A stretch of 60,138 bases of DNA from Patescibacteria group bacterium (GTDB taxonomy: Bacteria; Patescibacteriota; Minisyncoccia; Moranbacterales; UBA2206): positions 1 to 60,138 of the forward strand of contig JAUPKF010000005.1 of the NCBI GenBank assembly GCA_030837625.1, read 5' to 3'. Positions within the stretch are counted from its first letter, which is position 1. Each line of letters opens with the position of its first letter. Of this stretch, positions 31,162-56,320 are shown one piece after another. The translations under genes and the position numbers were made by a program. Under the pieces are notes generated by a model. It was not told the DNA's origin, did not search any database, and saw only the letters and a program-made list of their open reading frames with translations.

Positions 31162-32853
31162 TCAGCCTTCGGCTGAAACTTGTGCAACTGCCAGCCAGAC
31201 CCATAAAAATCCCAAAAATATTCCGGCGTTGAATAAATTCGGAATGATTATGGCAAACCAGGAAATAATCAGAAACAAATAAAAAACCTTGTTTTCCTGG
31301 TCTTGGGCGAAAAAATAGTTTTTTATCGAATTTAAAAGTATATACGAGAACAAGACGATTATGGATGCAAAACCGATAATGCCCGCTCCCAACCAGGTTT
31401 CCAGAAAAATGTTGGATGAATTGAACGACGCGCCACGTTCGTCGGTTCCCAAAATTGATCCGATATTCCCCCATCCGATTCCCAAAATCGGATGCTTTTT
31501 TATTTCCGCCCAGGATTTTTGGTAAATTTGGCTTCTTATTTTTACGTTCGGATCCTTTCGATAAACCTCTAAAATAATTCCCCCGCTTTTTTCTATGTCC
31601 TCCAGATTAATCTGCTTGCATTCGCACTTCTCCAGCTCTTTTATATCTTCGATTACATCTGGAATTTCACAAACCCAATCATAGGGAGGACACGAAATTG
31701 TAATCTTCTGCAATCCCGTTCCTGTGCTTTGGGCGCGATTGAATAGTTGGAAATTGGTTAGATTGAAAACATAAATTACAGCGAGGCTTATTGCCAAAGA
31801 AGCCAGTATTTTCAGCTTGAGAAAGAATGTTTCTTTCCAGCGCCAGTTTCTATGATCAAACTTCAAATCCGTAAACGCAATAAATAAAAATATAAACGTC
31901 GCCGCGAAAGCGCCCAACCAGGCGGATCGGGAAACGGTGAGGATGAGTATTATGTATAAAGTAGCAAGTAGAAAGTATAAGGCAAAAAGCCGTGTCATCC
32001 CGAGCGAAGTCCTGATGTACTCATCGGGACGAAGTCGAGGGATCTGGCTATTATAATCATAAGATTCACGATTTATAGTAATGTCATCGGCGGCCGTCGG
32101 TAGATTCCTCGACTTCGCTCCGCTTCGCTCGGAATGACAAGAATATATATAAGCATAAACAACACTAATAAGCAAAACCAGATATCCTCCCAGCCAGTCT
32201 GCTTCGGTGAATGTCGCGTTCGGCCGGCCGGGCATCACTTCGAAATCGGATAAATTATGCGTGAAAGCCCAATTTTGCCAAATGCCGTAGAAAGTTACGA
32301 TCACGCTTGAGCTTAGGAAAAACGGCAAGACTTTTTTCAAATCTCCTACGCTTTGAATATAGTTTCGCGCGAGAAAGTACAGCAGCGCGAAAGACGCGAG
32401 AATTACAGACAGCCGTAGGAGCAATTCATGAATTGCTCCTACGGCAAGCGCACTGACAAATCCTGAAAAAACCAAGATAATAACCAAATAATCCGCCAAG
32501 TTCAATTTCGCCAGTTTGAAATTCAATCTTTTGGTCGCCATCCGGATTAAGAATGCCGCGATTGTCAGCGCGCCGATGAATTGGTACGGCCGGATATCGA
32601 TGCCGAGTTCTGTCGGCGCCAGATTGATATTCTCCAAAGGAATAGTTCCGATAAAAAACAAAAACGCCCATCCCGGCCGGTACATCGCCAGTGCCAGCGT
32701 CAAAATCGCAAAAAACGCAAAATCCCCCGTTCGCAAGGGTATGATTTTCAAATTATTAAGCAATATCAAAAAGAAAACCAAAAAGACGTTCGCCAGAAGC
32801 AAATAATTTTTCGGTTTGTTTAGAGAGTTGATAAATTGTTGGAGCTGATGCAT
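31162..32853 (-). CDS. O-antigen ligase/Wzy_C-like membrane protein
   Basis: multi-TM; RPNATF, LTVSRSAW, R..IY...W...HPILGIGWGN. Confidence 0.85.
   Translation of the reverse strand: MHQLQQFINSLNKPKNYLLLANVFLVFFLILLNNLKIIPLRTGDFAFFAILTLALAMYRPGWAFLFFIGTIPLENINLAPTELGIDIRPYQFIGALTIAAFLIRMATKRLNFKLAKLNLADYLVIILVFSGFVSALAVGAIHELLLRLSVILASFALLYFLARNYIQSVGDLKKVLPFFLSSSVIVTFYGIWQNWAFTHNLSDFEVMPGRPNATFTEADWLGGYLVLLISVVYAYIYSCHSERSGAKSRNLPTAADDITINRESYDYNSQIPRLRPDEYIRTSLGMTRLFALYFLLATLYIILILTVSRSAWLGAFAATFIFLFIAFTDLKFDHRNWRWKETFFLKLKILASLAISLAVIYVFNLTNFQLFNRAQSTGTGLQKITISCPPYDWVCEIPDVIEDIKELEKCECKQINLEDIEKSGGIILEVYRKDPNVKIRSQIYQKSWAEIKKHPILGIGWGNIGSILGTDERGASFNSSNIFLETWLGAGIIGFASIIVLFSYILLNSIKNYFFAQDQENKVFYLFLIISWFAIIIPNLFNAGIFLGFLWVWLAVAQVSAEG
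31993..32139. mobile_element. 147-bp A1 element inserted in frame (49 aa)
   Basis: translates CHSERSGAKSRNL...TSLGMT between two TM helices. Confidence 0.9.
32412..32445. repeat. 34-bp perfect palindrome, GTAG-type REP, in frame
   Basis: GCCGTAGGAGCAATTCATGAATTGCTCCTACGGC. Confidence 0.85.
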
Positions 32854-34251: not shown

Positions 34252-34482
34252 ATGTTTCATTTGGTAAAATTTCTCATTTCCGCCGTAGTCATTTTCTTTT
34301 TGGCTGTTTTTGTTTTGGATTATTTCGGCTATGAAATCAACCAAAGTTATTTTACCGAAAGCAAGAAAAAGTGCGAGGAACGCTTGAAAGAATGCGGAAA
34401 GAATCTTGTCCAAGAAGGAACCAACAACGCCGAATGTAATTTCAATTGCGTCGATCCGAAGGTGATAATTAAAAAGAAATAG
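34252..34482 (+). CDS. small membrane-anchored protein with four Cys
   Basis: N-terminal TM then C-x6-C-x13-C-x3-C. Confidence 0.65.
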   Translation: MFHLVKFLISAVVIFFLAVFVLDYFGYEINQSYFTESKKKCEERLKECGKNLVQEGTNNAECNFNCVDPKVIIKKK

Positions 34483-34578: not shown

Positions 34579-35565
34579 ATGAAATTAATCGTCAATATCC
34601 CCGCTTATAACGAGGAAGAAAAAATTGGAGAAACCGTCCAAAGAATCAAAAAAAGTTTCGGGCTGGATTTTTATTCGTCCGGAAAAGGTTCCGTCATCAC
34701 CGAAAAACTCATCCAGCTGGTGGATGACGGCTCGGACGACAAAACCGCCGAGATCGCCAAAAATGCCGGCGCCGATATTATCATTTCCTACAAACCCAAC
34801 CGCCGTTTGGCCTATTCTTTCAAGCAAGCAGTGGAAAGTTCTCTCGCTCGCGGCGCGGATCTGATGGTCAATATCGACGCGGACGGGCAGTTTAATCCTG
34901 ACGATATTCCCAAGCTATTGGAACCGATTCTCAATGGAAAATCGGATATGGTGATTGCCAACCGGTTTGGCGAAAAAGAAGCTAAAAATATTCCTTGGAT
35001 TCGAAAAACTCTCAACAAATTCGCGGCCAGAGTAATTGGTTTTTTTCTGAACTACCGCACCAACGATTTGACTTGCGGATTTCGGGCGCACAACCGTGAA
35101 ACCATGCTTCGCCTTAATTTGACCAATATCTTTTTCACTTATACCCAGGAAACTATTATCGACGCTATTGGAAAAAATTTGAAAATCCAGTGGGTGCCGG
35201 TGGACGTGACATATTTCGACAACCGCGAGGCTAAAATCACCAAATCCATTTTCAAGTTCGTCAATAATTCTTTCAAAATAATTTTAAAAGCCATTCGCGA
35301 CGTGCGGCCGCTGAAATTCTTCGGATGGCCGGGAATTTTTTTCGTGTCTTTGGGTATTATCGGTTTCGCCATATTTTTCTTCAACTACTTTCAAGACTTC
35401 AAAATTCGTCCATATCTCAACTATATCGTCTTTTCTTCCATAACGATGTTTTTCGGCATTCAGCTGCTAATCTTCGCCCTTATCGCCGATATGGTTAAAT
35501 CATCCCGCCAACTGACGGAGGAATTTATGTATCAATGGAAGAAGGATAAATATGACAAACGGTAA
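34579..35565 (+). CDS. GT2, DPM1/GtrB-like polyprenol-phosphate glycosyltransferase with C-terminal TMs
   Basis: IPAYNEE, VDDGSDD, NIDADGQ, DLTCGFR; start at 34579. Confidence 0.9.
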   Translation: MKLIVNIPAYNEEEKIGETVQRIKKSFGLDFYSSGKGSVITEKLIQLVDDGSDDKTAEIAKNAGADIIISYKPNRRLAYSFKQAVESSLARGADLMVNIDADGQFNPDDIPKLLEPILNGKSDMVIANRFGEKEAKNIPWIRKTLNKFAARVIGFFLNYRTNDLTCGFRAHNRETMLRLNLTNIFFTYTQETIIDAIGKNLKIQWVPVDVTYFDNREAKITKSIFKFVNNSFKIILKAIRDVRPLKFFGWPGIFFVSLGIIGFAIFFFNYFQDFKIRPYLNYIVFSSITMFFGIQLLIFALIADMVKSSRQLTEEFMYQWKKDKYDKR

Positions 35566-36637
35566 ACTGAAAATTCTTTTTATAAGTCGGGCGTATCCGC
35601 CGGTTACTGGAGGGCTGGAAAACCAAAATTATGAACTTTCCGTGTGGCTTCCTAAAATCGCCGAGGTAAAAACAATAGCCAATACTCGCGGAAAAAAATT
35701 TCTGCCTTTTTTTCTTCCCTACGCTTTTCTAAAAGCGCTGTTTTTATGTAAAAAGTACGACGCTATTCTTTTAGGTGATGCGGTTCTCGGCGCCGTTGGA
35801 TGGAAATTGAAATTATTTTCCCGGAAACCCGTTGTTTGCGTCACCCACGGGTTGGATTTGACTTATCCGATGAAAATATACCAAAAGCTCTGGGTCGGTT
35901 TTTTTGCGGGAAAAATGGACAAGCTTATCGCTGTCGGAAATGAAACAATAGAAGCCGGGGCAAGAAGAGGCATTCCGAAAGACAAATTTGTTTTCATTCC
36001 TAACGGGGTCGACACGGAAAAATTTATCGAATTTCACAAGCGCGAGGAATTGGAAAAAATTGTCGGCGAAAAGTTAGAGAATAGAAAAATCATACTATCC
36101 ACGGGACGCCTGGCTGTTCACAAAGGCATTGACTGGTTTTGCGAAAACGTTGTGCCGCTTCTCGGCGAAGATATTATTTATCTTGTGGCGGGAGACGGAG
36201 AAAAAAGAAAGGATATTGAAAAAATAATCGCTTCCAAGAAATTGGAACCTAAGGTTAAAATACTGGGAAAGGTCAGTGATGAAGATTTAAAAGTTCTATA
36301 CAACACGGCCGATTTGTATGTTAAACCCAATATAAAAGTCGAAGGGACGATGGAAGGTTTTGGATTGGTGGCTATCGAGGCGGCATCGTGCAAGCTGCCG
36401 GTTATCGCGTCGAATTTGGAAGGTTTGAAAGACGCAATCAAAGACGGGCAAAACGGATTCTTGGTTGAACCGTACGATGCCGACGGATACGTGAAAAAAA
36501 TTAACGATCTGCTGAAAGATGAAGCGTATCGCCGTGACTTCGGCGAAGAAGCCAGAAAATATGTCATTGAAAATTATTCTTGGGAAAAAATTTCCCGAAG
36601 GTATTTGGAAGAAATTCAAAAAACAGTTTCAAAATAA
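35552..36637 (+). CDS. GT4 glycosyltransferase
   Basis: YPPVTGG, PNGVD, EGFGLVAIEA. Confidence 0.93.
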   Translation: MTNGKLKILFISRAYPPVTGGLENQNYELSVWLPKIAEVKTIANTRGKKFLPFFLPYAFLKALFLCKKYDAILLGDAVLGAVGWKLKLFSRKPVVCVTHGLDLTYPMKIYQKLWVGFFAGKMDKLIAVGNETIEAGARRGIPKDKFVFIPNGVDTEKFIEFHKREELEKIVGEKLENRKIILSTGRLAVHKGIDWFCENVVPLLGEDIIYLVAGDGEKRKDIEKIIASKKLEPKVKILGKVSDEDLKVLYNTADLYVKPNIKVEGTMEGFGLVAIEAASCKLPVIASNLEGLKDAIKDGQNGFLVEPYDADGYVKKINDLLKDEAYRRDFGEEARKYVIENYSWEKISRRYLEEIQKTVSK

Positions 36638-36689: not shown

Positions 36690-36749
36690 AAGCCAGGTCG
36701 CCTCAATCAATTGCCATTAAGTTTTAATTATGGCATACTATAATAGCCA

Positions 36750-37061
36750 ATGGACATCTACCAAAAAAATACAAACACAGAAAACGCGAATATTGAATCC
36801 ATAGATCCGAGAATCCACTTTTTCACCCAAGAAGAATTGGAAGCCAGGCGCTTCCCTCTTGGCAATTCCGCCTTTTTGAATTGGGTGGTGGAAAATTCTG
36901 AAGGGAAGGTCAAAAATAAAAAACAAGCTTTGGCAGTTATCGGATCTTTCGTTTTTCTTTTGACTGTATTATTTATTTTTACCAAATCTATGCTCGCCGG
37001 TCCGGATATCCCGCCGGAAGCCTTGAAAAATCCGGAGTACGGTTTGCCGATGGCAGATTAG
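36750..37061 (+). CDS. single-TM small protein, cassette copy 1
   Basis: 99/103 aa identical to 37786-38097. Confidence 0.8.
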   Translation: MDIYQKNTNTENANIESIDPRIHFFTQEELEARRFPLGNSAFLNWVVENSEGKVKNKKQALAVIGSFVFLLTVLFIFTKSMLAGPDIPPEALKNPEYGLPMAD

Positions 37062-37083
37062 TAAAAACAAAAAGATTTTATTT

Positions 37084-37731
37084 ATGGCATTTAATCAAAC
37101 AAAAAACAAGCTCAGTGGAGTTTCATTGATTGAAGTCTTGATTGTGATCGCGATAATCGCTATTTTGTCCAGCGTGATTTTGGTCAATCTCAAACGCTCG
37201 CTCACCCGAGCGGAGTACGCTCATGCTCAAATGCAGCTGAAGACACTGACGAACTTGATTGCTGAATTGGAAATAGATACAGGAAAAAGCCCAGCCGGTT
37301 TAGCTTTGCCTGAAACTCAATGCCACCCCACGCCACAACCGGGTTTTCCCCTTAACCATTGCGCTGCCGGCTTGTTTGATGACGTAAGTGGATCTGGTGG
37401 CTGCGTAGGGTCAGGAGTAGCAATAGAAGGAGGAGCTACTTATAGTGATCCCCGCGCTACATTTCCTAATTGGAGAGGGCCTTATGCAGAGTCTTTGCCG
37501 CTGGATCCATGGGGAACAAGTTACTATTATGATTTTGACTACTATTGCGGCAGTTCTCTCAAACAAAAGGGTTGTGAGGGCTACTATGGCAAAGTGGTCA
37601 GGGCGATTGTTTCCTTTGGACCTAACAAAGTTTGCAATTACAATTGGTCCGGCACCGTCGACAGTCCTTTTACTAGCAGCGACGATATCGTATATGTTCT
37701 GTGCGGAACAGCAAATAATATCTACCCATAA
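37084..37731 (+). CDS. type IV pilin / GspG-like pseudopilin, copy 1
   Basis: class III signal G|VSLIE plus hydrophobic helix; LPLDPWG. Confidence 0.88.
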   Translation: MAFNQTKNKLSGVSLIEVLIVIAIIAILSSVILVNLKRSLTRAEYAHAQMQLKTLTNLIAELEIDTGKSPAGLALPETQCHPTPQPGFPLNHCAAGLFDDVSGSGGCVGSGVAIEGGATYSDPRATFPNWRGPYAESLPLDPWGTSYYYDFDYYCGSSLKQKGCEGYYGKVVRAIVSFGPNKVCNYNWSGTVDSPFTSSDDIVYVLCGTANNIYP

Positions 37732-37785
37732 AAACCATTTTCATTCTCGATGCACGCCGTTTTTCATAAATAGAAAACAAGTTAA

Positions 37786-38097
37786 ATGGACATCTACCAA
37801 AAAAATACAAACACAGAAAACGCGAATATTGAATCCATAGATCCGAGAATCCACTTTTTTACCCAGGAAGAGTTGGAAGCCAGGCGTTTCCCTCTTGGTA
37901 ATTCCGCCTTTTTGAATTGGGTGGTGGAAAACTCCGAAGGAAAGGTTAAAAACAAAAAACAGGCATTGGCGGTTATCGCATCTTTCGTTTTTCTTTTAAC
38001 GATACTGTTCATTTTCACCAAGTCTATGCTCGCCGGTCCGGACATTCCGCCGGAAGCTTTGAAGAATCCAGAATATGGTTTACCTATCACAGATTGA
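37786..38097 (+). CDS. single-TM small protein, cassette copy 2
   Basis: paralog of 36750-37061. Confidence 0.8.
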   Translation: MDIYQKNTNTENANIESIDPRIHFFTQEELEARRFPLGNSAFLNWVVENSEGKVKNKKQALAVIASFVFLLTILFIFTKSMLAGPDIPPEALKNPEYGLPITD

Positions 38098-38103
38098 AAT
38101 CAG

Positions 38104-38754
38104 ATGAAAAAACAAAAAAACAAGAATTCTATCTCGAAAAACAAACTCAACGGGGTTTCCCTGATTGAGGTTTTGGTTGTGATCGCGATAATCGCCATCC
38201 TGTCCAGCGTAATTTTGGTGAGCCTGAAACGTTCGCTTACCAAAGCGGAATACGCCGAAGCCCAGATGCAGTTGAAGACACTGACAAACTTGATTGCCGA
38301 GTTGGAATTAGATACGGGGAAAAGTCTGGGGGGACATCCTTTGGCGGAAGTTGATTGCACGGAAAATAGGGAGATATATTTTAATGTTTGTGCGGCCGGT
38401 TTTCTTGATGTTGATGAATGTGACGACGACGAAAATAGATCCAAAGATGCCGGAGGAGTATATAGGGATGATCCTCGCGACGTGTTTGATAACTGGGCGG
38501 GTCCTTATTTAAATTCTTTTCCCCGGGATCCCTGGGGAACAAATTATTACTTTGATCCGGATTATATGTGCAACAGTGGGCTAAAACAGAAAGGATGTGA
38601 GGGATATTATGGCAGGCAAGTTAGAGCAATTGTTTCTTTTGGACCCAATAAAGTAAACAACTACAACTGGATGGGTAATGTCGGTGCTCCCCATGCTACC
38701 AGTGATGACATTGTTTATGTCCTGTGCGCGGGCGGGTCTCACAGCTATCCATAA
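38104..38754 (+). CDS. type IV pilin / GspG-like pseudopilin, copy 2
   Basis: G|VSLIE; FPRDPWG; C-terminus shared with copy 1. Confidence 0.88.
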   Translation: MKKQKNKNSISKNKLNGVSLIEVLVVIAIIAILSSVILVSLKRSLTKAEYAEAQMQLKTLTNLIAELELDTGKSLGGHPLAEVDCTENREIYFNVCAAGFLDVDECDDDENRSKDAGGVYRDDPRDVFDNWAGPYLNSFPRDPWGTNYYFDPDYMCNSGLKQKGCEGYYGRQVRAIVSFGPNKVNNYNWMGNVGAPHATSDDIVYVLCAGGSHSYP

Positions 38755-38851: not shown

Positions 38852-40939
38852 ATGCCAGATAGCATATTAAGTCAGATATTATTTTATATTTCAGCCGCTT
38901 TTGTCCTGTTTTTGCCGGGATATTTTTTGCTTGGAGTAGTTTTTAAGAAGAATAACGCTTTAGAACCGCTGGAAAAATTTATTGTTTCTTTTGGCTTGAG
39001 TATCGTCAGCGTCGATTTTATTTTTTTTCTTTATTCCCGGCTGAATATTCCCATCACGCAAACGTCGGCAATTGTTGGAATCGGAGTTTTTGTTCTGATA
39101 TGCTTTATCCTTGCCGGAGTCTCTCGAAGAGGACTCCGACAAGCCGCCGAGCCGTCGGAGTCCCTTTCAGGAGACTCCGACAAGGAAAGAAGAAGCTCTG
39201 GAACATTGATTCGTATGTCCGGCATCCGTAGCGCCGGTTCACGACGCGATAGCGGAGTGAATAACTTATTTCATTTTTCCAAAAACCAATTCATTCTCAT
39301 CTTGCTCTTGCTATTCTTGACGGTTTTCATTAAAACCGCCTACCTTTCCGGCACGATCGCGCCGACCGCCACCGATATGGGACATCATATGTATTGGGCG
39401 AAATGGCTGGCTCAGAATCATCAACTTCCGACTTATGAAGGAATGCCGGATTTTATCATCGGCGAACATATCATTTTTGGCGTCATAAGTCTGATAAGCG
39501 GCGCCGATTTTTTCTCGGCTTTTCCGGCGATTGTTTTATATCTGATAAATATTTTAAGCATCTTGACTGTCTTTATTTTGGTTTTGCGTATTTTCAAGAA
39601 TAAGACTGTCGCCATTTTATCTTTGTTCTTTTTAGGCGCGCTTTACGCCGTGTCTTCGCCGCAAGCCAAGTTTGTCAGCGGCGGCGTAATCGGAAACGTG
39701 ATGGGAAACTATTTTATGCCCCTGGCTTTTTATTTTTATTATCGAGCGCTTGAGTTCCTGAATGTAGGGGTTCAATTTATTGAACCCGAAAAACCAAAAG
39801 GGCTTGATAAATCAAACCCCTACGGTAAATCGTTATGTGACAGCAGGAAATTCTTATCCCTCGCTATTTTCACCACATTTGGTCTTTTCTACACCCACCA
39901 CTTGACTTCTTTCATCTTTCTTTTTGTTTTATTATTCTTTGTCCCCTTCTTTATTCTGATTAATTTTAAAAACATTAAGGAAATACTCAACCGCGCGCGG
40001 CCTGTCGTATTTTCACCGGCTGTCATCGGCACTTTTGTTTTAGGCTTGGTGTTTTTCTTTTTTATTTTCACGCCCACTTACGTCAATCCGGAAGCGGTGG
40101 ACACGGCGGTCGGCACGGCGGTGAAGTCCACCCGCACCGGGCTTACGCTGGAAAATATAAAGCTCACCGTCGGGGAGCCGCGTTTTGTTTTGGGGTTGAT
40201 AGGATTGCTGTTTCTAGTCTTGACTTATTTATACCCGCGCGAATTCGATAAAGATAGAAAAAATTTAGGATACGCACTGATCGTGTCCTGGTTGGTTACG
40301 CTTTTTATAATGTCGATGAAACCCAACTGGTTGTTTGTCGATATCCCCAGCGCCCGGATCGGAAATTACTTGAGCTATCCCTTGGCGATACTTTCCGCTT
40401 ATGCTTTGTACTGCACTTTTAATTCCAACTCAAAGCTTTTTGGCGAAAAAATTTCTTCCCGCGTTCCGCAAGCGCTCTTTTCCGGCGCGCTTTTGCTTTT
40501 CGTTATTTTTTCCTTCGCTCCTGGACTGGATGATTCGGCCGGCGCTTTCAAAACGCAAAACGCCGGAGAGGAAACCGTCCAGACCTTCTCCGCCTCGAAA
40601 TATCTGGCGGAAAAATCTTCTGTTTCCAATATGCTTCTCAAAGATCATAACTACATCACGGCCGACTCCTGGATAAAATTGTTTTTCATGAGAGAATATA
40701 AGTATCCCCTGTCCCGCGGATATTTCAAGCGCTACGAAGATCCGCTTAACCCTCGCGAGATGTGCACTCTCTGGATGATCGGCAGTCCGGCTTCCGCCGA
40801 TTCCCAAAAATGTTTTTCCGAAACCGGCGTCAATTTCGTGATGGTCAACCCGCGCTACGACAGCGCGCAATTTCAGAAATTGGATGAGTTTGATGAGGTT
40901 TATGTGAATGATGAAATAAATATTTTTTATAGAAAATGA
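38852..40939 (+). CDS. large multi-TM protein, probable GT-C fold, DUF1616-like N-terminus
   Basis: FLPGY.LL...LEKF..SFGLSI; TDMGHH.YW loop; more than 12 TM segments; soluble C-terminal domain. Confidence 0.65.
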   Translation: MPDSILSQILFYISAAFVLFLPGYFLLGVVFKKNNALEPLEKFIVSFGLSIVSVDFIFFLYSRLNIPITQTSAIVGIGVFVLICFILAGVSRRGLRQAAEPSESLSGDSDKERRSSGTLIRMSGIRSAGSRRDSGVNNLFHFSKNQFILILLLLFLTVFIKTAYLSGTIAPTATDMGHHMYWAKWLAQNHQLPTYEGMPDFIIGEHIIFGVISLISGADFFSAFPAIVLYLINILSILTVFILVLRIFKNKTVAILSLFFLGALYAVSSPQAKFVSGGVIGNVMGNYFMPLAFYFYYRALEFLNVGVQFIEPEKPKGLDKSNPYGKSLCDSRKFLSLAIFTTFGLFYTHHLTSFIFLFVLLFFVPFFILINFKNIKEILNRARPVVFSPAVIGTFVLGLVFFFFIFTPTYVNPEAVDTAVGTAVKSTRTGLTLENIKLTVGEPRFVLGLIGLLFLVLTYLYPREFDKDRKNLGYALIVSWLVTLFIMSMKPNWLFVDIPSARIGNYLSYPLAILSAYALYCTFNSNSKLFGEKISSRVPQALFSGALLLFVIFSFAPGLDDSAGAFKTQNAGEETVQTFSASKYLAEKSSVSNMLLKDHNYITADSWIKLFFMREYKYPLSRGYFKRYEDPLNPREMCTLWMIGSPASADSQKCFSETGVNFVMVNPRYDSAQFQKLDEFDEVYVNDEINIFYRK
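39115..39181. repeat. paired GGAGTC...GACTCC hairpins in frame
   Basis: GGAGTCTCTCGAAGAGGACTCC and GTCGGAGTCCCTTTCAGGAGACTCCGAC. Confidence 0.7.
39764..39823. repeat. 60-bp inverted GTAG-REP pair (BIME-like) in frame
   Basis: GTAGGGGTTCAATTTATTGAACCC...GGGCTTGATAAATCAAACCCCTAC. Confidence 0.8.
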
Positions 40940-46759: not shown

Positions 46760-48139
46760 AAAAGCCAGCTTTCTTACCAGGGCGGTTCTGGATATTTCCT
46801 TGCCCAAAATATTTTCATAATACTTGATTTTATTCTCTATCTCCTGAGAAAGCGCCGTGAGTGATTGTCTTTGTTCCTCCAATTCCGATTGCGATAAAAG
46901 ATCTTTTACTTCTTTCAACCAGACGCTGTCTTTCTCAATTTCCTTTTTCATAATGCCAGTCGGATACTCCCCGACTCCAAACAAGAACAGTGCTAGCTTG
47001 TTTCTCTTTGTCAAATTTTCCAAATCTGCCGTTGCTCTCCGAGAAGACTCTTTAAATAAAAATTCTATCTCGTCGGCTCTTTCCGCCAAAGCTTTCTCTT
47101 TATCGGCTTTTTCTTGGGTAATATCAACTTCAATCGGTCTGTTTTCTTCTCCCAGCATCAGGAGGTGCGCGTCTTCTTGCCGGTTTTCAACCGGCTGGTC
47201 GGTTATCGCGTTGTCGGTATTCTCGTTATCATCCACTGCCTCGGCAATATGGCAAAACGCGTTTATCGGATCCGTGCCGTTTGCTTCGATGGTATTGTTT
47301 TCCAAATTTATAGAGTCTTTCCAATACCAAAAAGTTGGCTCTCCTCCGCTGGGTAAAGCGCAGGTAAATCCATAATTATTGTTTCCGCTAATCTGGTTTT
47401 CCGCTATTCTTATTTTTCCGGCGCGATTAGACTCCTGATAAAACTGGGCGGCAATTCCGCTAGCGCGGTTGTTTCTTATCGTGTTGCCTGATATTTCCAA
47501 TTCCGAGCTACCGACGATGAATTCAATCCCACTCTCTTTGTTGCCGTAAATCTTATTTCCCCTGACGCTGCCGATGACTCCCGCCCGAATATCAATTCCC
47601 TCTTCTCCGTTGTCAAATATGTTGCTGTCCTCTATCTCCACTTCATTGCCCGCCTGGATATACATAGCCTTGCGTTCATTATCATACAAGTCAGTTTTTT
47701 TAACAGTAATTTTTCCCTTGCCGGCAGCCACATTTATTCCAATACTTCTTGATTTTTTAACAATGCAGTTTTCCACCGCCGCTTTGGCGCCTTTGGCCAC
47801 GTCAATGGCGATATTGCCTCCTTCCACGGTAATGTCTTTGACTAAATTCTTTCCCTCCATCGTCAAGGCGCCGTTTAGGGCAACTTCCTTGCGGCTTTCT
47901 CCAAATAGTTCCGCTGAATCCTTAAGAATAACGCTTTCTTCATAAAGCCCGGCGTAAATAAATATTTTTCCGGAAGGCGAAAATTCCAAAGCTTTGGCAA
48001 TGCTTCGGAAAGGACGCTCGCGGCTCCCATCCTCTTCTCCTATATAATTTTTATTTACATAAACATCATAAGACTCTCCGCGAATTTTGAAGGGAAGCAA
48101 TAAAAAAACCCCTATAATGACCAAGCAATATGTTTTCAT
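46739..48139 (-). CDS. secreted right-handed parallel beta-helix protein with a helical C-terminus
   Basis: signal peptide, YV...DGS...PF.SI..AL, repeated I..N.I..N...GI units. Confidence 0.8.
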   Translation of the reverse strand: MKTYCLVIIGVFLLLPFKIRGESYDVYVNKNYIGEEDGSRERPFRSIAKALEFSPSGKIFIYAGLYEESVILKDSAELFGESRKEVALNGALTMEGKNLVKDITVEGGNIAIDVAKGAKAAVENCIVKKSRSIGINVAAGKGKITVKKTDLYDNERKAMYIQAGNEVEIEDSNIFDNGEEGIDIRAGVIGSVRGNKIYGNKESGIEFIVGSSELEISGNTIRNNRASGIAAQFYQESNRAGKIRIAENQISGNNNYGFTCALPSGGEPTFWYWKDSINLENNTIEANGTDPINAFCHIAEAVDDNENTDNAITDQPVENRQEDAHLLMLGEENRPIEVDITQEKADKEKALAERADEIEFLFKESSRRATADLENLTKRNKLALFLFGVGEYPTGIMKKEIEKDSVWLKEVKDLLSQSELEEQRQSLTALSQEIENKIKYYENILGKEISRTALVRKLAFLWVFLL

Positions 48140-49899
48140 TATTCGGCCGCGTCAATCTCAATGGCGCCGGAATCATTTTTTGTGTTGAAGACGTCCTTCC
48201 AAAAAACCCTGTCAGTCGCGCCCTTATCTTCATTGAAGCGAAAATCTTCTTTTTTGGAACTTTCCAAAAATTCTACTTCCTGTACTTTTATCTGCCCAAG
48301 CTCTTTCGAATCGATTACTTTCAATTTTCCCTTGAATTTATCTTCCAAAAATTTGAGGTTTTTTTCCGCGGGGAAAACAGCGAAATATTGTCCGTTCGGA
48401 TCGTTTTGGTCTTTCAATGGGAAATATTTCAAATCCGGATCGTTTTTTTGAAAAAGCAGGTATCTTATCGGCTGGACATGCTCCGGTTTGACGTAGAAAT
48501 GAATGTTTGCCCCGGTTATTTTCTTTTCATAAATAAAATCCGCCGCCTTTTCCAGTTGCCCGAGCGTTACGCCGTCCTGGTTTTTCAAAATTAACGTTCG
48601 GTCAATGGAAATGTTTTTGTTTTGCGAATCGGCCTGCTCCTTAAACCAGGCGGCCGTTCCTTTGATATTCAAACCGATAATGGCCGCCGTAATGATCAAC
48701 GCCGCGTATTTTCCTTTGGAAGAAAATTTTTCGTCTAGAAACTGGAATACCAGTCCTAAAAATATGAAAGGAATCGGAAAGACGGAAATAAAAAAGCGTG
48801 GTCGCAATGAAGAATAAAGCGGAATCGCCAGCAGAAAAAAAATCCCGAACCAAGCCGCTAAAAGCCGCAAGAAATCCTTTCTGGCGCCGTCTTTTTCATT
48901 TTTCAACTGTCTGGCGGTTAACAGCAAGCCGGAAAGCATTATCAGCGCGGTGAGCAGGCCGAATTCGGCATTATCCTTTGTTTTCCCCTTATAGCACTCA
49001 GCGGTAGTGATCAGGCAATAATGCTTAATTTGCTTATCAAAAGACCGGGAAATTTTCGTGGACAGGGATTTTTTATTGGGTTTGGTTGAAAAAGCTTGAA
49101 TAAAATTTTTCGTATTTTCCCCTTTTCGCATCACGTCGCTAATAATAACCGGTGAATAAATCAAAAGGAAAACAGCCAGAAAAGCGCCGGAAAGCCAAAG
49201 CGTTTTTTTAAAAGAGAATGTTTCCATTGCCCGCCTTATCCCTTTTGGATGCCAAAGCTGAAAATGTGTAAACAAAACCAGCCCGGAAATAATCAAGAGA
49301 CAAAAAAGCCCCAAAAAGTGCAGTTGGCTGCCAATAGCCGTCCCCAGCGCCCAAACAACCGCCCAAGCAGCCTGTTGCTTGAAACTATCAGCTTTTAACA
49401 TTTTCAAAAGTCCGTAGAAGCTTAGCAGCGTAAAAAATAGCAAAGAATTGGGATTCCAAGCAAAACGAGAATATTGAATAACCAGGAAGGAAAAGGCGTA
49501 CATCGATGTTACCAAAAAAGAGTTTCTTTTTTCAAAATACAGCCGCAAAAATAGATAGAGCAGCGGTATGGTCAGGATTGAAAAAAACAAGTCCGGATAA
49601 GCGAAAACTTCCGGTTCGGTTGAATTGAAAATTGCCCCGGCGGCGTATTGGAAATAGTAAAAAATCGGGCCCAGGCGCAAAAATCCGGCGGAAACATCCG
49701 TGGCTCCGGCTCGCGGCCCCAAAAGCGGCAAATGTTCCGGCCCGTTCTTAACGGCGTTTCCTACCATAAAAGTATCGCGCGCCTGGTCCATCTTGAAATA
49801 CAGCCAATCGTTATGTTGATATGTCCTGACCCAAATCGCCGCAATCATCAAAACCGAAAAAGAAACCGCCAAAAGTTTGTTGTTTTTGAGATAGTTCAT
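48139..49899 (-). CDS. GT-C (ArnT/PMT-like) glycosyltransferase
   Basis: DQARD, LLGPRAG, LGP.FYY, SRFAWNPN, SQLHF. Confidence 0.8.
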   Translation of the reverse strand: MNYLKNNKLLAVSFSVLMIAAIWVRTYQHNDWLYFKMDQARDTFMVGNAVKNGPEHLPLLGPRAGATDVSAGFLRLGPIFYYFQYAAGAIFNSTEPEVFAYPDLFFSILTIPLLYLFLRLYFEKRNSFLVTSMYAFSFLVIQYSRFAWNPNSLLFFTLLSFYGLLKMLKADSFKQQAAWAVVWALGTAIGSQLHFLGLFCLLIISGLVLFTHFQLWHPKGIRRAMETFSFKKTLWLSGAFLAVFLLIYSPVIISDVMRKGENTKNFIQAFSTKPNKKSLSTKISRSFDKQIKHYCLITTAECYKGKTKDNAEFGLLTALIMLSGLLLTARQLKNEKDGARKDFLRLLAAWFGIFFLLAIPLYSSLRPRFFISVFPIPFIFLGLVFQFLDEKFSSKGKYAALIITAAIIGLNIKGTAAWFKEQADSQNKNISIDRTLILKNQDGVTLGQLEKAADFIYEKKITGANIHFYVKPEHVQPIRYLLFQKNDPDLKYFPLKDQNDPNGQYFAVFPAEKNLKFLEDKFKGKLKVIDSKELGQIKVQEVEFLESSKKEDFRFNEDKGATDRVFWKDVFNTKNDSGAIEIDAAE

Positions 49900-49931
49900 A
49901 GTTTATATAATACCTAAAAAAATAAATTTTA

Positions 49932-51656
49932 TCAATCAAAAATTTCTTCCCATAGATATCTTTTTGGCGCGCCGCTGCGGTGTTTCTTCGGGGGCTGTTC
50001 CAGATTTGGCGTTTCATCGGTTATTTCACCTTCTTTCGGAAGCAATGTTAAGACGGAAAGCGTTCCAAAATTTTTGACGCCGGCTATATCATAGAGCGGC
50101 GTTTCTTTTTTCCCCAAAGAATATGATCCATCACTGCGCGTAAAATCCACCCAAAAATAATTGGCCTGCCGGTAGATATGGTCGCGCGGAATCTTATCGT
50201 CAAAAACCGCTTCGTCTTCTTTCAGCAGAAACTCCAGCGCCGGCACGTAACGCGCGTCTCCCGAAAAGAAAATCGCCTGACCGTTTTCTGTTTGCGATTG
50301 GAGCATATATTTTTCGATCATTTTTTCCTGCCGGTACGTTACCCGCGTTTTTTCCTTAAGCAGCAGATCTAAATCGGTTTCCAAGTTTATTTTATGTGCC
50401 ATCGCCAATTCGCCAAAGCGTTTTTTGACTTCCAAGCCGTTGGAAACCGCCAAAATAAAAACAACGGCCGATATCACCCAAATCGGTTTCATTTTTCGGG
50501 GAATTGTTTCAAGAATCAATCCCAAAAACACAAACGGCAAAAAAGCCGATATAAGAAAATAGCGCGGAGAAAGCTCCATCGCTAGCGGGATAAAAAGCAA
50601 GAAAATGGCAGAAAACCAAAGCCCGTTAAGAAGCAAGAAATCTTTTCGGCGCGGATCGGTTTCTTTTTTGAAATTCAAAACCAAAATCAAAAAACCAAAA
50701 AACACAAAAGCCGCGCTAAAAAATCCCAAATAATAATCCTGGGGGCAATTCTCGCCGCAGTCGCGATATCGGGCAGCCAGTCCGTTAAGGTTCAATCCCA
50801 AGAGACTATTGCCGTCCCGCCCCGAAAGAATCAAAAAATATCCGGCGGAGTGTTCTTTTATGTTAAAAAATATTTTATTCACAAGACTTACGGAACTATC
50901 CTCCGATTTTCCGCTGATGGTTTTTAGAAATTCTTCGGTATTATCTCCGCCGGTTTGATATTCATTCAGGAAAACCGGAATATAAAAGAGCAACGCTATC
51001 GAAATTGCCAACATCCAAAATTTAAGGCTGATTTTTGGACGCTTGAAAATAAAAAATATCAAAAAAACAAGAGGCAGGGCGATGAACGCCAAAAAATGCA
51101 ACTGGGTGGAAATGGAAAGCGACGTCAGAGCCGCCGCCAGCCAAATTCCCCGCCGGGATTCTTTTTCGTCCACCGCTCGCAATGTGGAATACAGAGCCAA
51201 GGGAACAAAAAATACCAAAGGATTAGGATTCCAGGCAAAGCGGGAATACATAATGAGAAAAATGGAAAAGTTCGAAATGGCGAAAAGCGCCAAGGAGATT
51301 TTTTTGTCGAAATACCGGCGGAAAAAAAGATACATAAGCGGAAGGGAAAAAATTGCCAAAAGCAAAACCCCGACCGCCATTCCGGGCGGAGTGTTGCCGA
51401 AAATTTTGGCGCTGGCGTATTCCAAATAGTAGTAAGCCGGGCCGAGCCGGAGGAAAGTTCCGCGGGCGCGCGGACCGAGAAGCGGCAATTCGGAAATACT
51501 CCCCTCCGCCGCTGAAAAAACCACATCAGCGTCTCGCGCCTGGTCAAGCTCGAAATGAAGCCAGTCGGAAAAATTGTAAGTTCTCAAGAAACATCCTAAG
51601 GCTAATATGCCTAAAAATGCCGCTAGAAAAGCTTTTTTTTGAAAAATAAAACGCAT
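49932..51656 (-). CDS. GT-C (ArnT/PMT-like) glycosyltransferase
   Basis: DQARD, LLGPRARG, LGPAYYY, SRFAWNPN; start at 51656 (TAATG coupling). Confidence 0.8.
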   Translation of the reverse strand: MRFIFQKKAFLAAFLGILALGCFLRTYNFSDWLHFELDQARDADVVFSAAEGSISELPLLGPRARGTFLRLGPAYYYLEYASAKIFGNTPPGMAVGVLLLAIFSLPLMYLFFRRYFDKKISLALFAISNFSIFLIMYSRFAWNPNPLVFFVPLALYSTLRAVDEKESRRGIWLAAALTSLSISTQLHFLAFIALPLVFLIFFIFKRPKISLKFWMLAISIALLFYIPVFLNEYQTGGDNTEEFLKTISGKSEDSSVSLVNKIFFNIKEHSAGYFLILSGRDGNSLLGLNLNGLAARYRDCGENCPQDYYLGFFSAAFVFFGFLILVLNFKKETDPRRKDFLLLNGLWFSAIFLLFIPLAMELSPRYFLISAFLPFVFLGLILETIPRKMKPIWVISAVVFILAVSNGLEVKKRFGELAMAHKINLETDLDLLLKEKTRVTYRQEKMIEKYMLQSQTENGQAIFFSGDARYVPALEFLLKEDEAVFDDKIPRDHIYRQANYFWVDFTRSDGSYSLGKKETPLYDIAGVKNFGTLSVLTLLPKEGEITDETPNLEQPPKKHRSGAPKRYLWEEIFD

Positions 51657-53293
51657 TATTTCGTTCTTAAAGCGAATATGGAAAATTGGCGGTAGACGTC
51701 GCAATTATCAATAGTATATTTTTCCAGAAATTTATCCGAAATTTCACAGCCGCGGTCGGCGCTCTTTATGTAGAGCACTTGCGTGCCGGGCTCCAATCGC
51801 GTTTCTTTTTCCAGGGAGATTATTTCCAAGCCGGATCCTCGCGCCAAAAATCGCAACGGACGAAAAAATTTGAAAAGATAGCCAGCTTGGGCATCTGCGT
51901 AAACGGAGTTACTCTCAAAGTTTTCTCGCGTAAAATTTACGATATACTTTCCTTCTCCCAAAGTCAGATAGTCAAAGTCCCCGTTAATTTCACTTCCGCC
52001 TCGAGCCATATTTCTGTAAGTATGGCCTACTTTTTGCAGATTGAAAAGCGAAATCGCGGCGACAATAACCGCCGTGATTAAAAAACCTTTTTTGAATTTT
52101 CCTGAAAAAAATTCCAGCCAAAATCCCAAAAGCAGAAATGGCAGAAAAGACAACGGCAAGAAGAATCGAATAGAAAGTTCTGTCGCCCAAGCGAGATAAA
52201 ACAAAAAAGACAACGCGGCGTAACCGGACAAAACCGCCAAGAATATTTTTTTTCGCTCTTCTTTTTCTTTTTTGAAGTTTTTTGCCAGCAAATAATATCC
52301 GCCCAAAGAAAACATTGCGGCGACGGCGGCAAAAATAATAAAAAACGCTTTTTGCGGCAAGGGCATTTTCTTGCCGTCCAGTTTTTGCGCGGTTTTCAAA
52401 TCGGATTTGTAATCGCATTCGTCTTCGTTTCCCAAGGAAGTCAAAATATGGGCGTTGGATTTGATATGGCAGGAAAAATTTAGCGCCAAATTTCTTGAAA
52501 AATTCGCGTTCCTTTCGTTTTTGTTCGTGGCGCCCCGAAGCAACTGGCTCGTGTTGGCTCCGCCGGTTTTAATTTCGCTGATAATTTGCGGGGTGTTGAC
52601 GAACAACGCCGCAAGTACAAGAATGGCGGCGGAAACAAAAGTTGTTTTTTTGTTTTTAATAAAATAAATCAGGGCAAAGACAGCGAAAACTGGCATTATT
52701 ATCAAAAGCGAGGTGTGCAACTGGACGCTTATCCCCAGCGCCGCGCCCGCCAAAGCCGCCCAGATGTATTTTCCTTTTCCAATAGCGAAAGCCGATCTGT
52801 AAATCGAATAGATAAAAAGCATCACAAAAAAAGGCGTGGAGTTGGGGTTCCAGGCGAAACGGGAAAACTTGACGGCAAAATACGAAATAGCGTAAAGCCA
52901 CGTTAGGGACAACGCGATCGGCGTTTGAAAATAAGCTTTAGCCAGAAAATAAAATAAGATCATCGCCAGCATGGAGAAAAGCAAGTCCGGATAAGCCAAT
53001 TTTTCCGGCTCGGCGCCGAAAATTTTAGCCGAAGCGTATTGAAAATAATAGAAAGCCGGCCCCAGCCTGAATTCCGTTCCCCCAGCTTTCGGTCCGAATG
53101 CGGGAAGTTCATTTTTATCGCTCAAGTCTTTTATAAAAATGGCATCGCGCGACTGGTCCATGTTAAACCGCAACCAATCGGAAAAATGATACGAGCGCAA
53201 AAAAGCGCCGATGAAGATTATAAAAAACAAAAAAAACATAGCTGATTTACGGCTACCTCTTATTTTTGCAAATAAGCTTCTGACAAAAGCCAT
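51656..53293 (-). CDS. GT-C (ArnT/PMT-like) glycosyltransferase
   Basis: DQSRD, FGPKAGG, LGPAFYY, SRFAWNPN, VQLH. Confidence 0.8.
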   Translation of the reverse strand: MAFVRSLFAKIRGSRKSAMFFLFFIIFIGAFLRSYHFSDWLRFNMDQSRDAIFIKDLSDKNELPAFGPKAGGTEFRLGPAFYYFQYASAKIFGAEPEKLAYPDLLFSMLAMILFYFLAKAYFQTPIALSLTWLYAISYFAVKFSRFAWNPNSTPFFVMLFIYSIYRSAFAIGKGKYIWAALAGAALGISVQLHTSLLIIMPVFAVFALIYFIKNKKTTFVSAAILVLAALFVNTPQIISEIKTGGANTSQLLRGATNKNERNANFSRNLALNFSCHIKSNAHILTSLGNEDECDYKSDLKTAQKLDGKKMPLPQKAFFIIFAAVAAMFSLGGYYLLAKNFKKEKEERKKIFLAVLSGYAALSFLFYLAWATELSIRFFLPLSFLPFLLLGFWLEFFSGKFKKGFLITAVIVAAISLFNLQKVGHTYRNMARGGSEINGDFDYLTLGEGKYIVNFTRENFESNSVYADAQAGYLFKFFRPLRFLARGSGLEIISLEKETRLEPGTQVLYIKSADRGCEISDKFLEKYTIDNCDVYRQFSIFALRTK

Positions 53294-53327
53294 GTTTGAT
53301 TTTTTAAATTTTTTTATGGCGCGAAAG

Positions 53328-54212: not shown

Positions 54213-54391
54213 CTTGATTTAAAAACGCTTAACAATTATAATTTTATTATAACACCAATCGGTTTAGAAATTCAATTCTCTAGAGACTTACGCGTTTTGC
54301 CCGGCAGCCTGATTTTTGAAAAAATCGCTGTTTAAGAACGACGCTTTTTCTCCAAAATTTTCCATTGGTAGCCGTCGATTGAGGGGAAATT

Positions 54392-56302: not shown

Positions 56303-56320
56303 TTTCCTGAATTTTACGCT

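What the first reader, a model, noticed from the sequence alone, without database searches (positions are those of the whole stretch)
36750..38754. Tandemly duplicated 'small TM protein + pilin' cassette with a hypervariable pilin core
Seen: two units 1036 bp apart. The 103-aa proteins differ at only 4 residues despite many synonymous changes, and their first ~74 nt are identical. The pilins share the N-terminal helix and the C-terminus (KQKGCEGYYG..VRAIVSFGPNKV.NYNW...SDDIVYVLC), but the Cys-containing middle third is almost unrelated. Both have Val rather than Phe at +1 (G|VSLIE) and the GspG-like DPWG motif. Inference: a diversifying pilin array (host attachment or phage-receptor variation), each pilin with its own conserved partner; the identical 5' stretch suggests recent gene conversion or a recombination hotspot.
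Basis: partly seen in the sequence, partly recalled or inferred. Interest (0 to 1): 0.7.

Follow-up and report, generated by a model that had tools for sequence, protein, structure and literature searches.

The report
Duplicated pilin-plus-small-partner gene module
Two tandem copies of a two-gene unit, an undescribed small membrane protein followed by a type IV pilin, sit in an ultrasmall (CPR/Patescibacteria) bacterium, and comparison with other genomes shows the unit is a conserved, swappable module in which the small protein's outer tail matches the type of pilin beside it.

Summary
Two units lie 1036 bp apart, each a 103-aa single-pass membrane protein followed by a 215/216-aa prepilin. 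The small genes differ at 35 of 312 nt but only 4 residues (dN/dS about 0.025), and their first 74 nt are identical (p about 1e-4 to 3e-3). The pilins share the N-terminal helix and the C-terminal third. They diverge most in a lineage-specific loop insertion of about 25-28 aa.

The small protein belongs to an unannotated Patescibacteria family of about 100 clusters, with no Pfam, NCBIfam or PDB relative. In 15 of 16 distinct loci examined, a pilin follows it directly. Its extracytoplasmic tail tracks the pilin type: ALxxPxYGLP tail with DPWGT pilin in 8 of 8 pairs, other tails with other pilins in 7 of 7. The one relative that lacks the pilin has kept the protein's core but lost the tail motif. 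In another organism, a ~1.3 kb replacement that includes "small-gene 3' part + pilin" separates otherwise near-identical strains, with one breakpoint inside the small gene.

So the partner idea and the recombination idea are supported. Positive selection on the pilin core could not be shown because dS is saturated. The small protein's biochemical role, probably a pilin-specific assembly or stabilisation factor, is inferred and not shown.

The parts
36711..36742 (+). Promoter-like site (TTGCCA-17-CATACT, overlapping a perfect TATAAT at 36737-36742) 7 nt upstream of the small1 ATG, with no Shine-Dalgarno sequence; suggests a leaderless or near-leaderless transcript
   Evidence: The CATACTATAA box is conserved upstream of the ortholog in L001. 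This is a consensus match only, not evidence of function.
36750..37061 (+). small1: 103-aa bitopic membrane protein of a new pilin-linked family. Disordered N-terminus, juxtamembrane helix FLNWVVENS, K-rich loop, TM helix at residues 57-82, extracytoplasmic tail GPDIPPEALKNPEYGLPMAD
   Evidence: No Pfam, NCBIfam or PDB relative.
37084..37731 (+). pilin1: 215-aa prepilin (G|VSLIE) with a GspG-like fold and a Gly/Ser-rich loop insertion
   Evidence: Pfam N_methyl 26.3 bits and T2SSG 28.9 bits. AF2 pLDDT 79.6. Nearest PDB folds are EpsG, GspG and PulG.
37282..37473 (+). pilin1 divergent core (residues ~67-130), including the lineage-specific insertion of ~25-28 aa; low model confidence at residues 101-120
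   Evidence: pN 0.43, pS 0.73.
37786..38097 (+). small2: paralog of small1 with 4 aa differences and the same tail motif (…EALKNPEYGLPITD)
38104..38754 (+). pilin2: 216-aa prepilin (G|VSLIE), 65% identical to pilin1, with an acidic loop insertion (DVDECDDDENRSKD)
38317..38496 (+). pilin2 divergent core (residues ~72-131)
36749..36823 (+). 5' arm, copy 1: 75 nt identical to 37785-37859
37785..37859 (+). 5' arm, copy 2: 75 nt identical to 36749-36823
35552..36637 (+). Upstream flank: GT4 glycosyltransferase, syntenic with L001
   Evidence: 61.8% aa identity.
38852..40939 (+). Downstream flank: 695-aa polytopic membrane protein (DUF1616/DUF6541), syntenic with L001, where it directly follows the single small gene
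   Evidence: 74.9% aa identity.

Best explanation
The region is a tandem duplication of a two-gene pilin module that is widespread in Patescibacteria (CPR). Gene 1 encodes a bitopic membrane protein of about 60-115 aa. It has a lineage-specific cytoplasmic N-terminus, a family-wide juxtamembrane motif ((T)PKIIxWVIKYSGGLIKNEKQA), one TM helix and a short extracytoplasmic tail. Gene 2, which starts between 4 nt before and 24 nt after the stop of gene 1, encodes a type IV pilin.

Shown: the two genes are almost always adjacent; the tail type co-varies with the pilin type; both small paralogs here are under strong purifying selection; and the tail motif has decayed in the one lineage that lost the pilin.

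Inferred: the tail contacts a conserved face of the cognate pilin's globular domain at the outer membrane surface. That face would be the DPWGT...SFGPNK part, not the variable loop, because the two window tails are nearly identical while the loops differ. The conserved cytoplasmic/TM part anchors the protein or docks it to the shared pilus machinery. On this reading the small protein is a pilin-specific stabilising, priming or loading factor.

After the duplication, the two pilins kept the assembly-relevant helix and the C-terminal sheet. They diverged in a surface loop insertion, Gly/Ser-rich in one and acidic in the other, giving two surface variants of one pilin type.

The identical first 74 nt of the small genes are a recent gene-conversion tract. 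More generally, the 5' part of the small gene acts as the resident homology arm when the 'small-3'-part + pilin' cassette is copied or exchanged.
For: Adjacency: a pilin directly follows the small gene in L009/L010, L011 (two modules), L014/L015, L016, L017, L019, L020, L021, L022, L023, L026, L027 and in the window (twice). The surrounding genes are otherwise unrelated.
Tail and pilin type co-vary: 8/8 and 7/7, Fisher p = 1.6e-4.
Family: about 100 clusters, all Patescibacteria, all unnamed.
Purifying selection: omega = 0.025 between the paralogs at dS 0.67.
Natural experiment: in L001 (no pilin), core+TM has dN 0.033 but the tail has dN 0.51. Elsewhere the tail motif is the best-conserved segment of the family.
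Topology: a K-rich segment precedes the predicted TM helix at 57-82, and the tail is short.
Pilin: N_methyl plus a GspG-like fold. The insertion is specific to the window pair and is their most divergent part.
5' arm; recurrence in L011.
Allelic replacement: about 1.3 kb differs between L015 and L026, with the left breakpoint at small-gene nt ~120 and both flanks 97-100% identical.
Tandem layout: supported by independent contigs.
Against: No physical interaction has been tested and no co-fold could be run.
The closest relative keeps a highly constrained small protein without any adjacent pilin, so the core must have a function that does not need a neighbouring pilin.
Two pilins of the same subfamily (L024, L025) have no small gene upstream.
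The window contains no pilus machinery, so a link to assembly is an assumption.
The co-variation counts are not corrected for phylogeny.
No evidence of expression: the RNA runs of the same study hold none of the sequence.
Positive selection on the loop is not demonstrable because dS is saturated.
Confidence: 0.62

Rival explanations
1. The small protein is a regulator or sensor and not an assembly factor. On this view it is a bitopic membrane protein that senses the membrane pool of its cognate pilin through its tail or TM helix and signals through its cytoplasmic N-terminal part, so that it controls pilin expression or the choice between pilin paralogs.
For: This fits the adjacency and the tail/pilin-type match equally well. 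The cytoplasmic part is conserved within a lineage and under strong purifying selection, as expected if it has a cytoplasmic partner. The protein persists with a conserved core in L001 without a pilin.
Against: No DNA-binding, anti-sigma or kinase-like domain is detectable. The N-terminus is predicted to be disordered. Tight coupling to the pilin gene (from a 4-nt overlap to a 24-nt gap) suggests stoichiometric co-production rather than regulation.
Confidence: 0.15
2. The pilin core divergence is neutral or relaxed drift after an old duplication (subfunctionalisation or a redundant copy), not adaptive diversification. The two-copy array then has no role in host or phage interaction.
For: In the core, pN (0.43-0.48) is below pS (0.73-0.8), and no window has dN > dS. 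The divergent segment has low model confidence, so it is probably a flexible loop that tolerates change. No variants were seen in four runs.
Against: Both pilins keep intact signal peptides, all conserved family anchors and a constrained C-terminal domain. The loops have changed character (Gly/Ser-rich against strongly acidic) rather than simply decaying. In a related module the whole pilin type is replaced between near-identical strains, which is typical of loci under diversifying selection. dS is saturated, so the test has no power.
Confidence: 0.3
3. The small protein belongs to the surface-glycan locus, for example as a subunit working with the DUF1616-like membrane protein, and its position next to pilins here is incidental.
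For: In the closest relative (L001-L008) the single small gene lies between the GT4 gene and the DUF1616 gene with no pilin, and its core is highly conserved. The window cassettes sit inside a ~30-kb glycosylation island.
Against: In 13 other distinct loci (L009-L027) the family member is next to a pilin and never next to DUF1616 or glycosyltransferases. The tail co-varies with pilin type.
Confidence: 0.05
4. The identical 74-nt 5' stretch is an assembly artefact, or it reflects selection on the mRNA 5' end rather than gene conversion.
For: De Bruijn assemblers can mix near-identical repeats. Two Logan contigs switch between the copies exactly at a shared 32-nt run. The stretch is A-rich and lies at a probably leaderless start.
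Against: Independent contigs from four runs reproduce both junctions with no differences. The L001 ortholog differs from the window at synonymous sites within the first 40 nt, so there is no strict nucleotide constraint. The same pattern occurs in L011 and in L015/L026.
Confidence: 0.08

Closest known systems
Pilin-accessory gene cassettes of Pseudomonas aeruginosa and other Pseudomonadota (TfpX/TfpY/TfpZ, also called FimB-like; PMC11841053)
   Same: A dedicated membrane accessory gene is linked to a particular pilin type, so pilin and accessory form an exchangeable cassette. The accessory's conserved transmembrane part and variable extracytoplasmic part were proposed to give pilin specificity. 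[quoted passage not shown]
   Different: TfpY-like proteins are 235-245 aa with three TM helices and a periplasmic globular beta-domain, are encoded downstream of the pilin behind an attenuating terminator, and occur in Pseudomonadota. The protein here is 103 aa with one TM helix and a ~20-aa tail and no globular domain, is encoded upstream, and is restricted to Patescibacteria. No sequence similarity was detected.
GspG/PulG/EpsG major pseudopilins of type II secretion systems
   Same: Prepilin signal with E5, a long N-terminal helix, the DPWG motif and a small C-terminal beta-sheet. These are the nearest solved folds (4lw9, 3g20, 5o2y, 5wda), and the T2SSG Pfam match is above its threshold.
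   Different: The TIGR01710 GspG equivalog scores 46.7 and 43.8 bits against a cut-off of 88.85. The proteins are about 80 aa longer, with a loop insertion and a Cys-containing C-terminal extension. They have Val at +1. CPR bacteria are monoderm-like and no T2SS genes are present in the window.
Tandemly duplicated major pilins, e.g. Streptococcus sanguinis PilE1/PilE2 or PilA1-A3 (PMC11121087)
   Same: Adjacent full-length pilin paralogs with conserved N-termini and divergent globular parts.
   Different: Those arrays lie inside the pil machinery locus and each pilin does not have its own duplicated partner gene. Here the duplicated unit is the partner-plus-pilin pair, and it lies far from any machinery.
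Neisseria pilE/pilS antigenic variation
   Same: Pilin variation arises through recombination that uses conserved 5' sequence as homology.
   Different: pilS copies are silent, promoterless and 5'-truncated. Both copies here are complete genes with start codons and signal peptides, so this mechanism does not apply.

Membership tests
Type IV pilin / prepilin (class III signal peptide) | N-terminal cleavage/methylation motif G|(F/x)xxxE followed by a ~20-aa hydrophobic helix | tested here: met
   Pfam PF07963 scores 26.3 and 27.5 bits (cut-off 21.2) and TIGR02532 scores 22.1 and 24.4 bits (cut-off 16.3). The sequence is G|VSLIEVLIVIAIIAILSSV with Glu at +5. Position +1 is Val instead of Phe.
Type IV pilin / prepilin | Lollipop fold: a long alpha1 helix packed on a C-terminal antiparallel beta-sheet | tested here: met
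   The AF2 model has pLDDT 79.6 and pTM 0.74, with a helix at 15-66 and strands at 148-155, 170-177 and 202-208.
Type IV pilin / prepilin | Processing by a prepilin peptidase and assembly by a PilB/PilC-type machine | not testable with these tools
   No PilB, PilC, PilD or PilM-O genes lie in the 60-kb window. The rest of the genome is not available.
GspG (T2SS major pseudopilin, TIGR01710 equivalog) | Full-length match above the curated equivalog cut-off | tested here: not met
   46.7 and 43.8 bits against a cut-off of 88.85. The Pfam T2SSG match covers only 28 residues around DPWG. Foldseek to EpsG/GspG/PulG gives E 0.09-0.4 and TM 0.5-0.63 on the target. The protein is GspG-like in fold but is not a GspG ortholog.
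TfpY/TfpX/TfpZ (FimB-like) pilin accessory proteins | Three N-terminal TM helices plus a periplasmic beta-sheet domain, ~235-245 aa, encoded downstream of the pilin (PMC11841053) | tested here: not met
   The protein is 103 aa with a single predicted TM helix (57-82) and no globular domain. It is encoded upstream. There is no family or PDB sequence match.
PilN/PilO/GspM-type bitopic alignment or assembly proteins | A single TM helix followed by a periplasmic coiled-coil and ferredoxin-like domain; detectable sequence relationship | tested here: not met
   Only about 20 extracytoplasmic residues are present. A profile search of all PDB sequences gives nothing better than E = 0.73, to an unrelated transporter subunit.
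New CPR 'pilin-upstream small membrane protein' family (defined here) | Juxtamembrane motif WV(I/V)xxSxGx(I/V)KxxKQA plus one TM helix plus a short tail, encoded immediately upstream of a prepilin gene | tested here: met
   Both window copies align with the family. The profile search recovers P0001 at E = 1.6e-28 among 100 clusters. A pilin follows after 22 nt and after 6 nt.
pilE/pilS-type silent-cassette antigenic variation | Promoterless, 5'-truncated silent copies that donate sequence to one expressed locus | tested here: not met
   Both pilin copies are complete ORFs with start codons and signal peptides. No further pilin fragments were found in the window.

The most novel reading that the evidence does not exclude
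The small protein is a previously unrecognised, minimal pilin-specific adaptor in CPR bacteria. Its exchangeable extracytoplasmic tail recognises one pilin type, and its lineage-specific cytoplasmic part docks to the organism's single pilus machine. On this reading 'tail + pilin' cassettes can be swapped or duplicated by recombination within the small gene, which would give episymbiotic ultrasmall bacteria a modular way to change or multiply the surface pili they use to attach to hosts or evade phages.
Probability: 0.3. Interest if true: 0.8.

Novelty: new variant of a known kind. Interest (0 to 1): 0.62.

Why it matters
Type IV pili are the main candidate organelles for host attachment in CPR/Patescibacteria. 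These bacteria are a large and mostly uncultured part of bacterial diversity and live as episymbionts (PMC11623550, PMC11665869). Their many orphan pilins are unexplained.

This work identifies an unannotated small-protein family that travels with pilins, matches them by tail type and is exchanged together with them. That gives a concrete, testable handle on three questions: how these organisms assemble pilins, how they choose among them and how they diversify them.

It also offers a compact analogue of the TfpY-type accessory proteins, whose mechanism is still unclear. A tail motif of about 20 residues should be much easier to dissect than a globular domain.

Tried and rejected
1. The search for related loci with the full 19-sequence alignment failed because no stretch was conserved enough. 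A narrower alignment gave only 1 genome locus and 5 metagenome loci, so most context came from the look-up of encoding contigs.

2. Copy-switching contigs in runs X2 and X4 looked like recombinants or a single-unit variant. They switch exactly at a 32-nt identical run (small-gene nt 115-146), which is what a k=31 assembly graph would produce, so I rejected them as evidence.

3. Sliding dN/dS on the pilins: dS is saturated (pS 0.7-1.0), so there is no usable omega for the core.

4. A 5'-to-3' gradient of synonymous divergence along the unit is only suggestive. The 5' block against the C-terminal part gives p = 0.075.

5. RNA runs of the same study hold none of the sequence, so there are no expression data.

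6. Pfam scan of 50 family members found only scattered weak TM-type hits: YldA in 5/50 with best E = 1.3e-3, and nothing consistent.

7. PDB profile search with the small family found no relative.

8. Co-folding the small protein with the pilin was not possible.

9. The idea that the neighbouring glycosylation genes are dedicated to the pilins: the same island exists without pilins in L001, so I did not pursue it.
Full report
**1. Observation**

The window carries two head-to-tail units 1036 bp apart.
- small1 is at 36750-37061 and pilin1 at 37084-37731.
- small2 is at 37786-38097 and pilin2 at 38104-38754.
- Homology begins at 36749, one base before the ATG. The sequences upstream of the two small genes are unrelated.

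The small genes differ at 35 of 312 nt. Twenty-nine changed codons are synonymous and four are not, and the first difference is at nt 75. By Nei-Gojobori, dS = 0.67, dN = 0.017 and omega = 0.025. In the first 74 nt, 0 of 24 third positions changed, against 29 of 79 in the rest (Fisher p = 1.5e-4; longest-run permutation p = 0.003).

The pilins are 65% identical. dN is about 0.05 in the signal and helix, up to 0.76 in the core, and 0.14-0.2 in the C-terminal part. dS is saturated throughout.

Logan contigs from four freshwater metagenome runs reproduce the layout. One 1066-nt contig covers 36749-37814 with no differences, and both units have similar depth.

**2. What the genes are**

*The pilins.* Both long proteins pass Pfam N_methyl and have a short T2SSG match around DPWG. 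They fail the GspG equivalog model (46.7 and 43.8 bits against a cut-off of 88.85). The AF2 model of pilin1 (pLDDT 79.6) has a helix at 15-66 and a three-stranded sheet. Its nearest solved folds are EpsG, EHEC GspG and PulG, with weak scores. Aligned with 21 homologs, all from CPR-type contigs, 155-224 aa long and at most 45% identical, the window pair shows three differences:
- a private insertion of about 25-28 aa between CAAG(L/F) and FPNW;
- a C-terminal extension;
- Val instead of Phe at +1.

The insertion is the most divergent part between the paralogs. It is Gly/Ser-rich in pilin1 and strongly acidic in pilin2. It is also the least confident part of the model.

*The small protein.* It has no Pfam or NCBIfam match and no PDB sequence relative. 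AF2 predicts a disordered N-terminus, a short helix at 41-49, a K-rich loop, a TM helix at 57-82 and a short tail. By the positive-inside rule the topology is N-in/C-out; this is an inference.

**3. Context in the window**

There is no pilus machinery in the 60 kb. The region from about 27 to 58 kb is a surface-glycan island. It holds GT2 and GT4 glycosyltransferases, an LCP protein, Wzy_C, Wzx, a DUF1616/DUF6541 membrane protein, a beta-helix protein, five PMT_2 (GT-C) paralogs and GtrA. No other pilin or small-family gene is present.

**4. The closest relative lacks the pilin**

The only close homolog of the small protein is P0002 (78% identity), from Candidatus Moranbacteria RIFOXYA12_FULL_44_15. 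Its locus (L001-L008) has the same gene order as the window: GT4, a 76-aa ORF, GT2, GT4, the small gene, DUF1616, a 119-aa ORF, GT1, RtcB. The difference is that it has one small gene and no pilin.
- Flanking proteins are 55-91% identical to the window's.
- Between the window and L001, the small protein's core and TM (residues 21-85) have dN = 0.033, tighter than any flanking gene.
- The tail has dN = 0.51 and has lost the motif (EVLVDLGYAIPAPPID against EALKNPEYGLPMAD).

**5. The small protein is a pilin-linked family across CPR**

An exhaustive HMMER search found 15 remote members (one of them spurious). A profile search of the 5.8-billion-protein collection found 100 clusters, all unnamed Patescibacteria proteins such as Paceibacterota, Sungiibacteriota and Moranbacteria.

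The family shares the motif (T)PKIIxWVIKYSGGLIKNEKQA followed by a TM helix. The N-termini vary.

In every locus with readable downstream sequence, a prepilin gene starts between 4 nt before and 24 nt after the small gene's stop codon. These loci are L009/L010, L011 (two modules), L014/L015, L016, L017, L019, L020, L021, L022, L023, L026 and L027. The neighbouring genes are otherwise unrelated, for example ribosomal genes, ParAB or enolase. Counting the window's two, that is 15 of 16 distinct loci. The exception is the L001 type.

The reverse does not always hold. Two pilins of the same subfamily (L024, L025) have no small ORF upstream.

**6. The tail tracks the pilin type**

Small proteins that end in ...ALxxPxYGLPxxD are always followed by the DPWGT...SFGPNK pilin subfamility (8 of 8 distinct pairs). 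Small proteins with other tails are followed by other pilin types (7 of 7). L019 and L020 share both a second tail type and a second pilin type. Fisher p = 1.6e-4, not corrected for phylogeny.

Taken with the tail decay in the pilin-less L001 lineage, this is the main evidence that the extracytoplasmic tail works with the pilin. The two window tails are nearly identical while the pilin loops differ. The tail therefore most likely recognises the conserved part of the pilin.

**7. Recombination**

The L001 ortholog differs from the window at synonymous sites within the first 40 nt. The 74-nt identity between the paralogs is therefore not a nucleotide-level constraint, and recent gene conversion is the simplest explanation. 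The same pattern appears twice more.
- In L011, two modules on opposite strands about 3.5 kb apart have small genes that are near-identical from about -25 to about +95. They then diverge, have unrelated tails and sit upstream of different pilin types.
- L015 and L026, from sister samples, are the same chromosomal locus (RelA/SpoT-ParB-ParA | small-pilin | PAP2-Sua5).
  - There are only 2 mismatches in 2619 nt, up to small-gene nt 119.
  - Identity then falls to about 78% across the core and TM.
  - The tail and the pilin globular domain are unrelated, and the pilins are of different types.
  - The PAP2 gene is about 80% identical.
  - Identity returns to 97-100% about 1.3 kb further on.

The L015/L026 case is an allelic replacement that carries 'small-gene 3' part + pilin' with one breakpoint inside the small gene.

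Along the window unit, pS rises from 0.08 to 0.53, 0.59, 0.73 and 0.77. Only the first step is significant.

**8. What could not be shown**

- Positive selection on the pilin core: dS is saturated and pN stays below pS.
- Population variants in the window organism: only contigs from one study were available. Two copy-switching contigs coincide with a 32-nt shared run, as a k=31 graph would produce, and were discarded.
- Expression: the RNA runs hold none of the sequence.
- Any physical interaction between the small protein and the pilin.

**9. Comparison with known systems**

The nearest concept is the pilin-accessory cassette of Pseudomonadota, TfpX/Y/Z. Those proteins have three TM helices and a periplasmic domain, are 235-245 aa long and are encoded downstream of the pilin. 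[quoted passage not shown] The present family is not homologous to them, is much smaller, is encoded upstream and is restricted to CPR.

The papers found in the held library on Patescibacteria pili do not mention such a partner. Tandem pilin paralogs are known elsewhere (PMC11121087), but not as duplicated partner-plus-pilin pairs. The pilE/pilS mechanism does not apply, because both copies here are complete genes.

**10. Verdict**

The feature is real. The claim of adaptive diversification remains open. The module is a new variant of a known kind, a pilin with a dedicated accessory, and the accessory family itself is undescribed. Its biochemical role is inferred.

Noticed in passing
L015:1429-5562 vs L026:1-4061: The same chromosomal locus in two related populations is about 99.9% identical on the left and 97-100% on the right. 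A ~1.3 kb segment between them is replaced, covering the small-gene 3' part, a pilin of a different type and a ~80%-identical PAP2 gene. This is a strain-level pilin-type swap with one breakpoint inside the small gene.
   Followed up: yes
L011:1449-2227 (-) and L011:5711-6519 (+): One Pacebacteria contig carries two small+pilin modules with different pilin types. Their small genes are near-identical from about -25 to about +95 and then diverge.
   Followed up: partly
window 39159-39275 (inside the DUF1616-like gene 38852-40939): Contig depth is 3-5 times higher here, and many different loose ends occur at 39209, 39239, 39249 and 39269 in all four runs. This suggests a ~40-60-nt element shared with many other contigs of the metagenome. 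It lies next to the inverted repeat at 39108-39186 and the direct repeats at 39115-39184.
   Followed up: no
window 48139-58201: Five paralogous PMT_2 (GT-C) membrane glycosyltransferase genes lie in a row (48139-49899, 49932-51704, 51656-53293, 54392-56302, 56321-58201), followed by GtrA. This is an unusually dense set of GT-C enzymes for a small genome.
   Followed up: no
window 34252-34482: A 76-aa ORF with an N-terminal TM helix and a Cys-rich C-terminus is 90.8% identical to its L001 counterpart (dN 0.042). That makes it one of the best-conserved genes of the locus, second only to the small protein's core. It has no family match.
   Followed up: no
window 36737-36749: A perfect TATAAT lies 7 nt upstream of the small1 ATG with no Shine-Dalgarno sequence, and the box is conserved in L001. 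This suggests a leaderless transcript. The sequence upstream of small2 has no comparable box.
   Followed up: partly
window 36896-37059 and 37785-37899 (runs X2, X4): Logan contigs switch between copy-1 and copy-2 letters exactly at the 32-nt identical run (small-gene nt 115-146). One of them joins the small1 upstream region to the small2/pilin2 junction. This is either a k-mer graph artefact or a real single-unit recombinant, and contigs alone cannot decide.
   Followed up: partly
L025:2268-3501: A DPWGT-type pilin without a small gene sits directly downstream of a phage Mu Gam-like gene.
   Followed up: no
window 31162-32853: A Wzy_C (O-antigen ligase-like) protein lies 4 kb upstream of the pilins. 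From my own knowledge, pilin O-oligosaccharyltransferases such as TfpO/PilO and PglL carry this domain. Pilin glycosylation by the surrounding island is conceivable but untested, and the island exists without pilins in L001.
   Followed up: no
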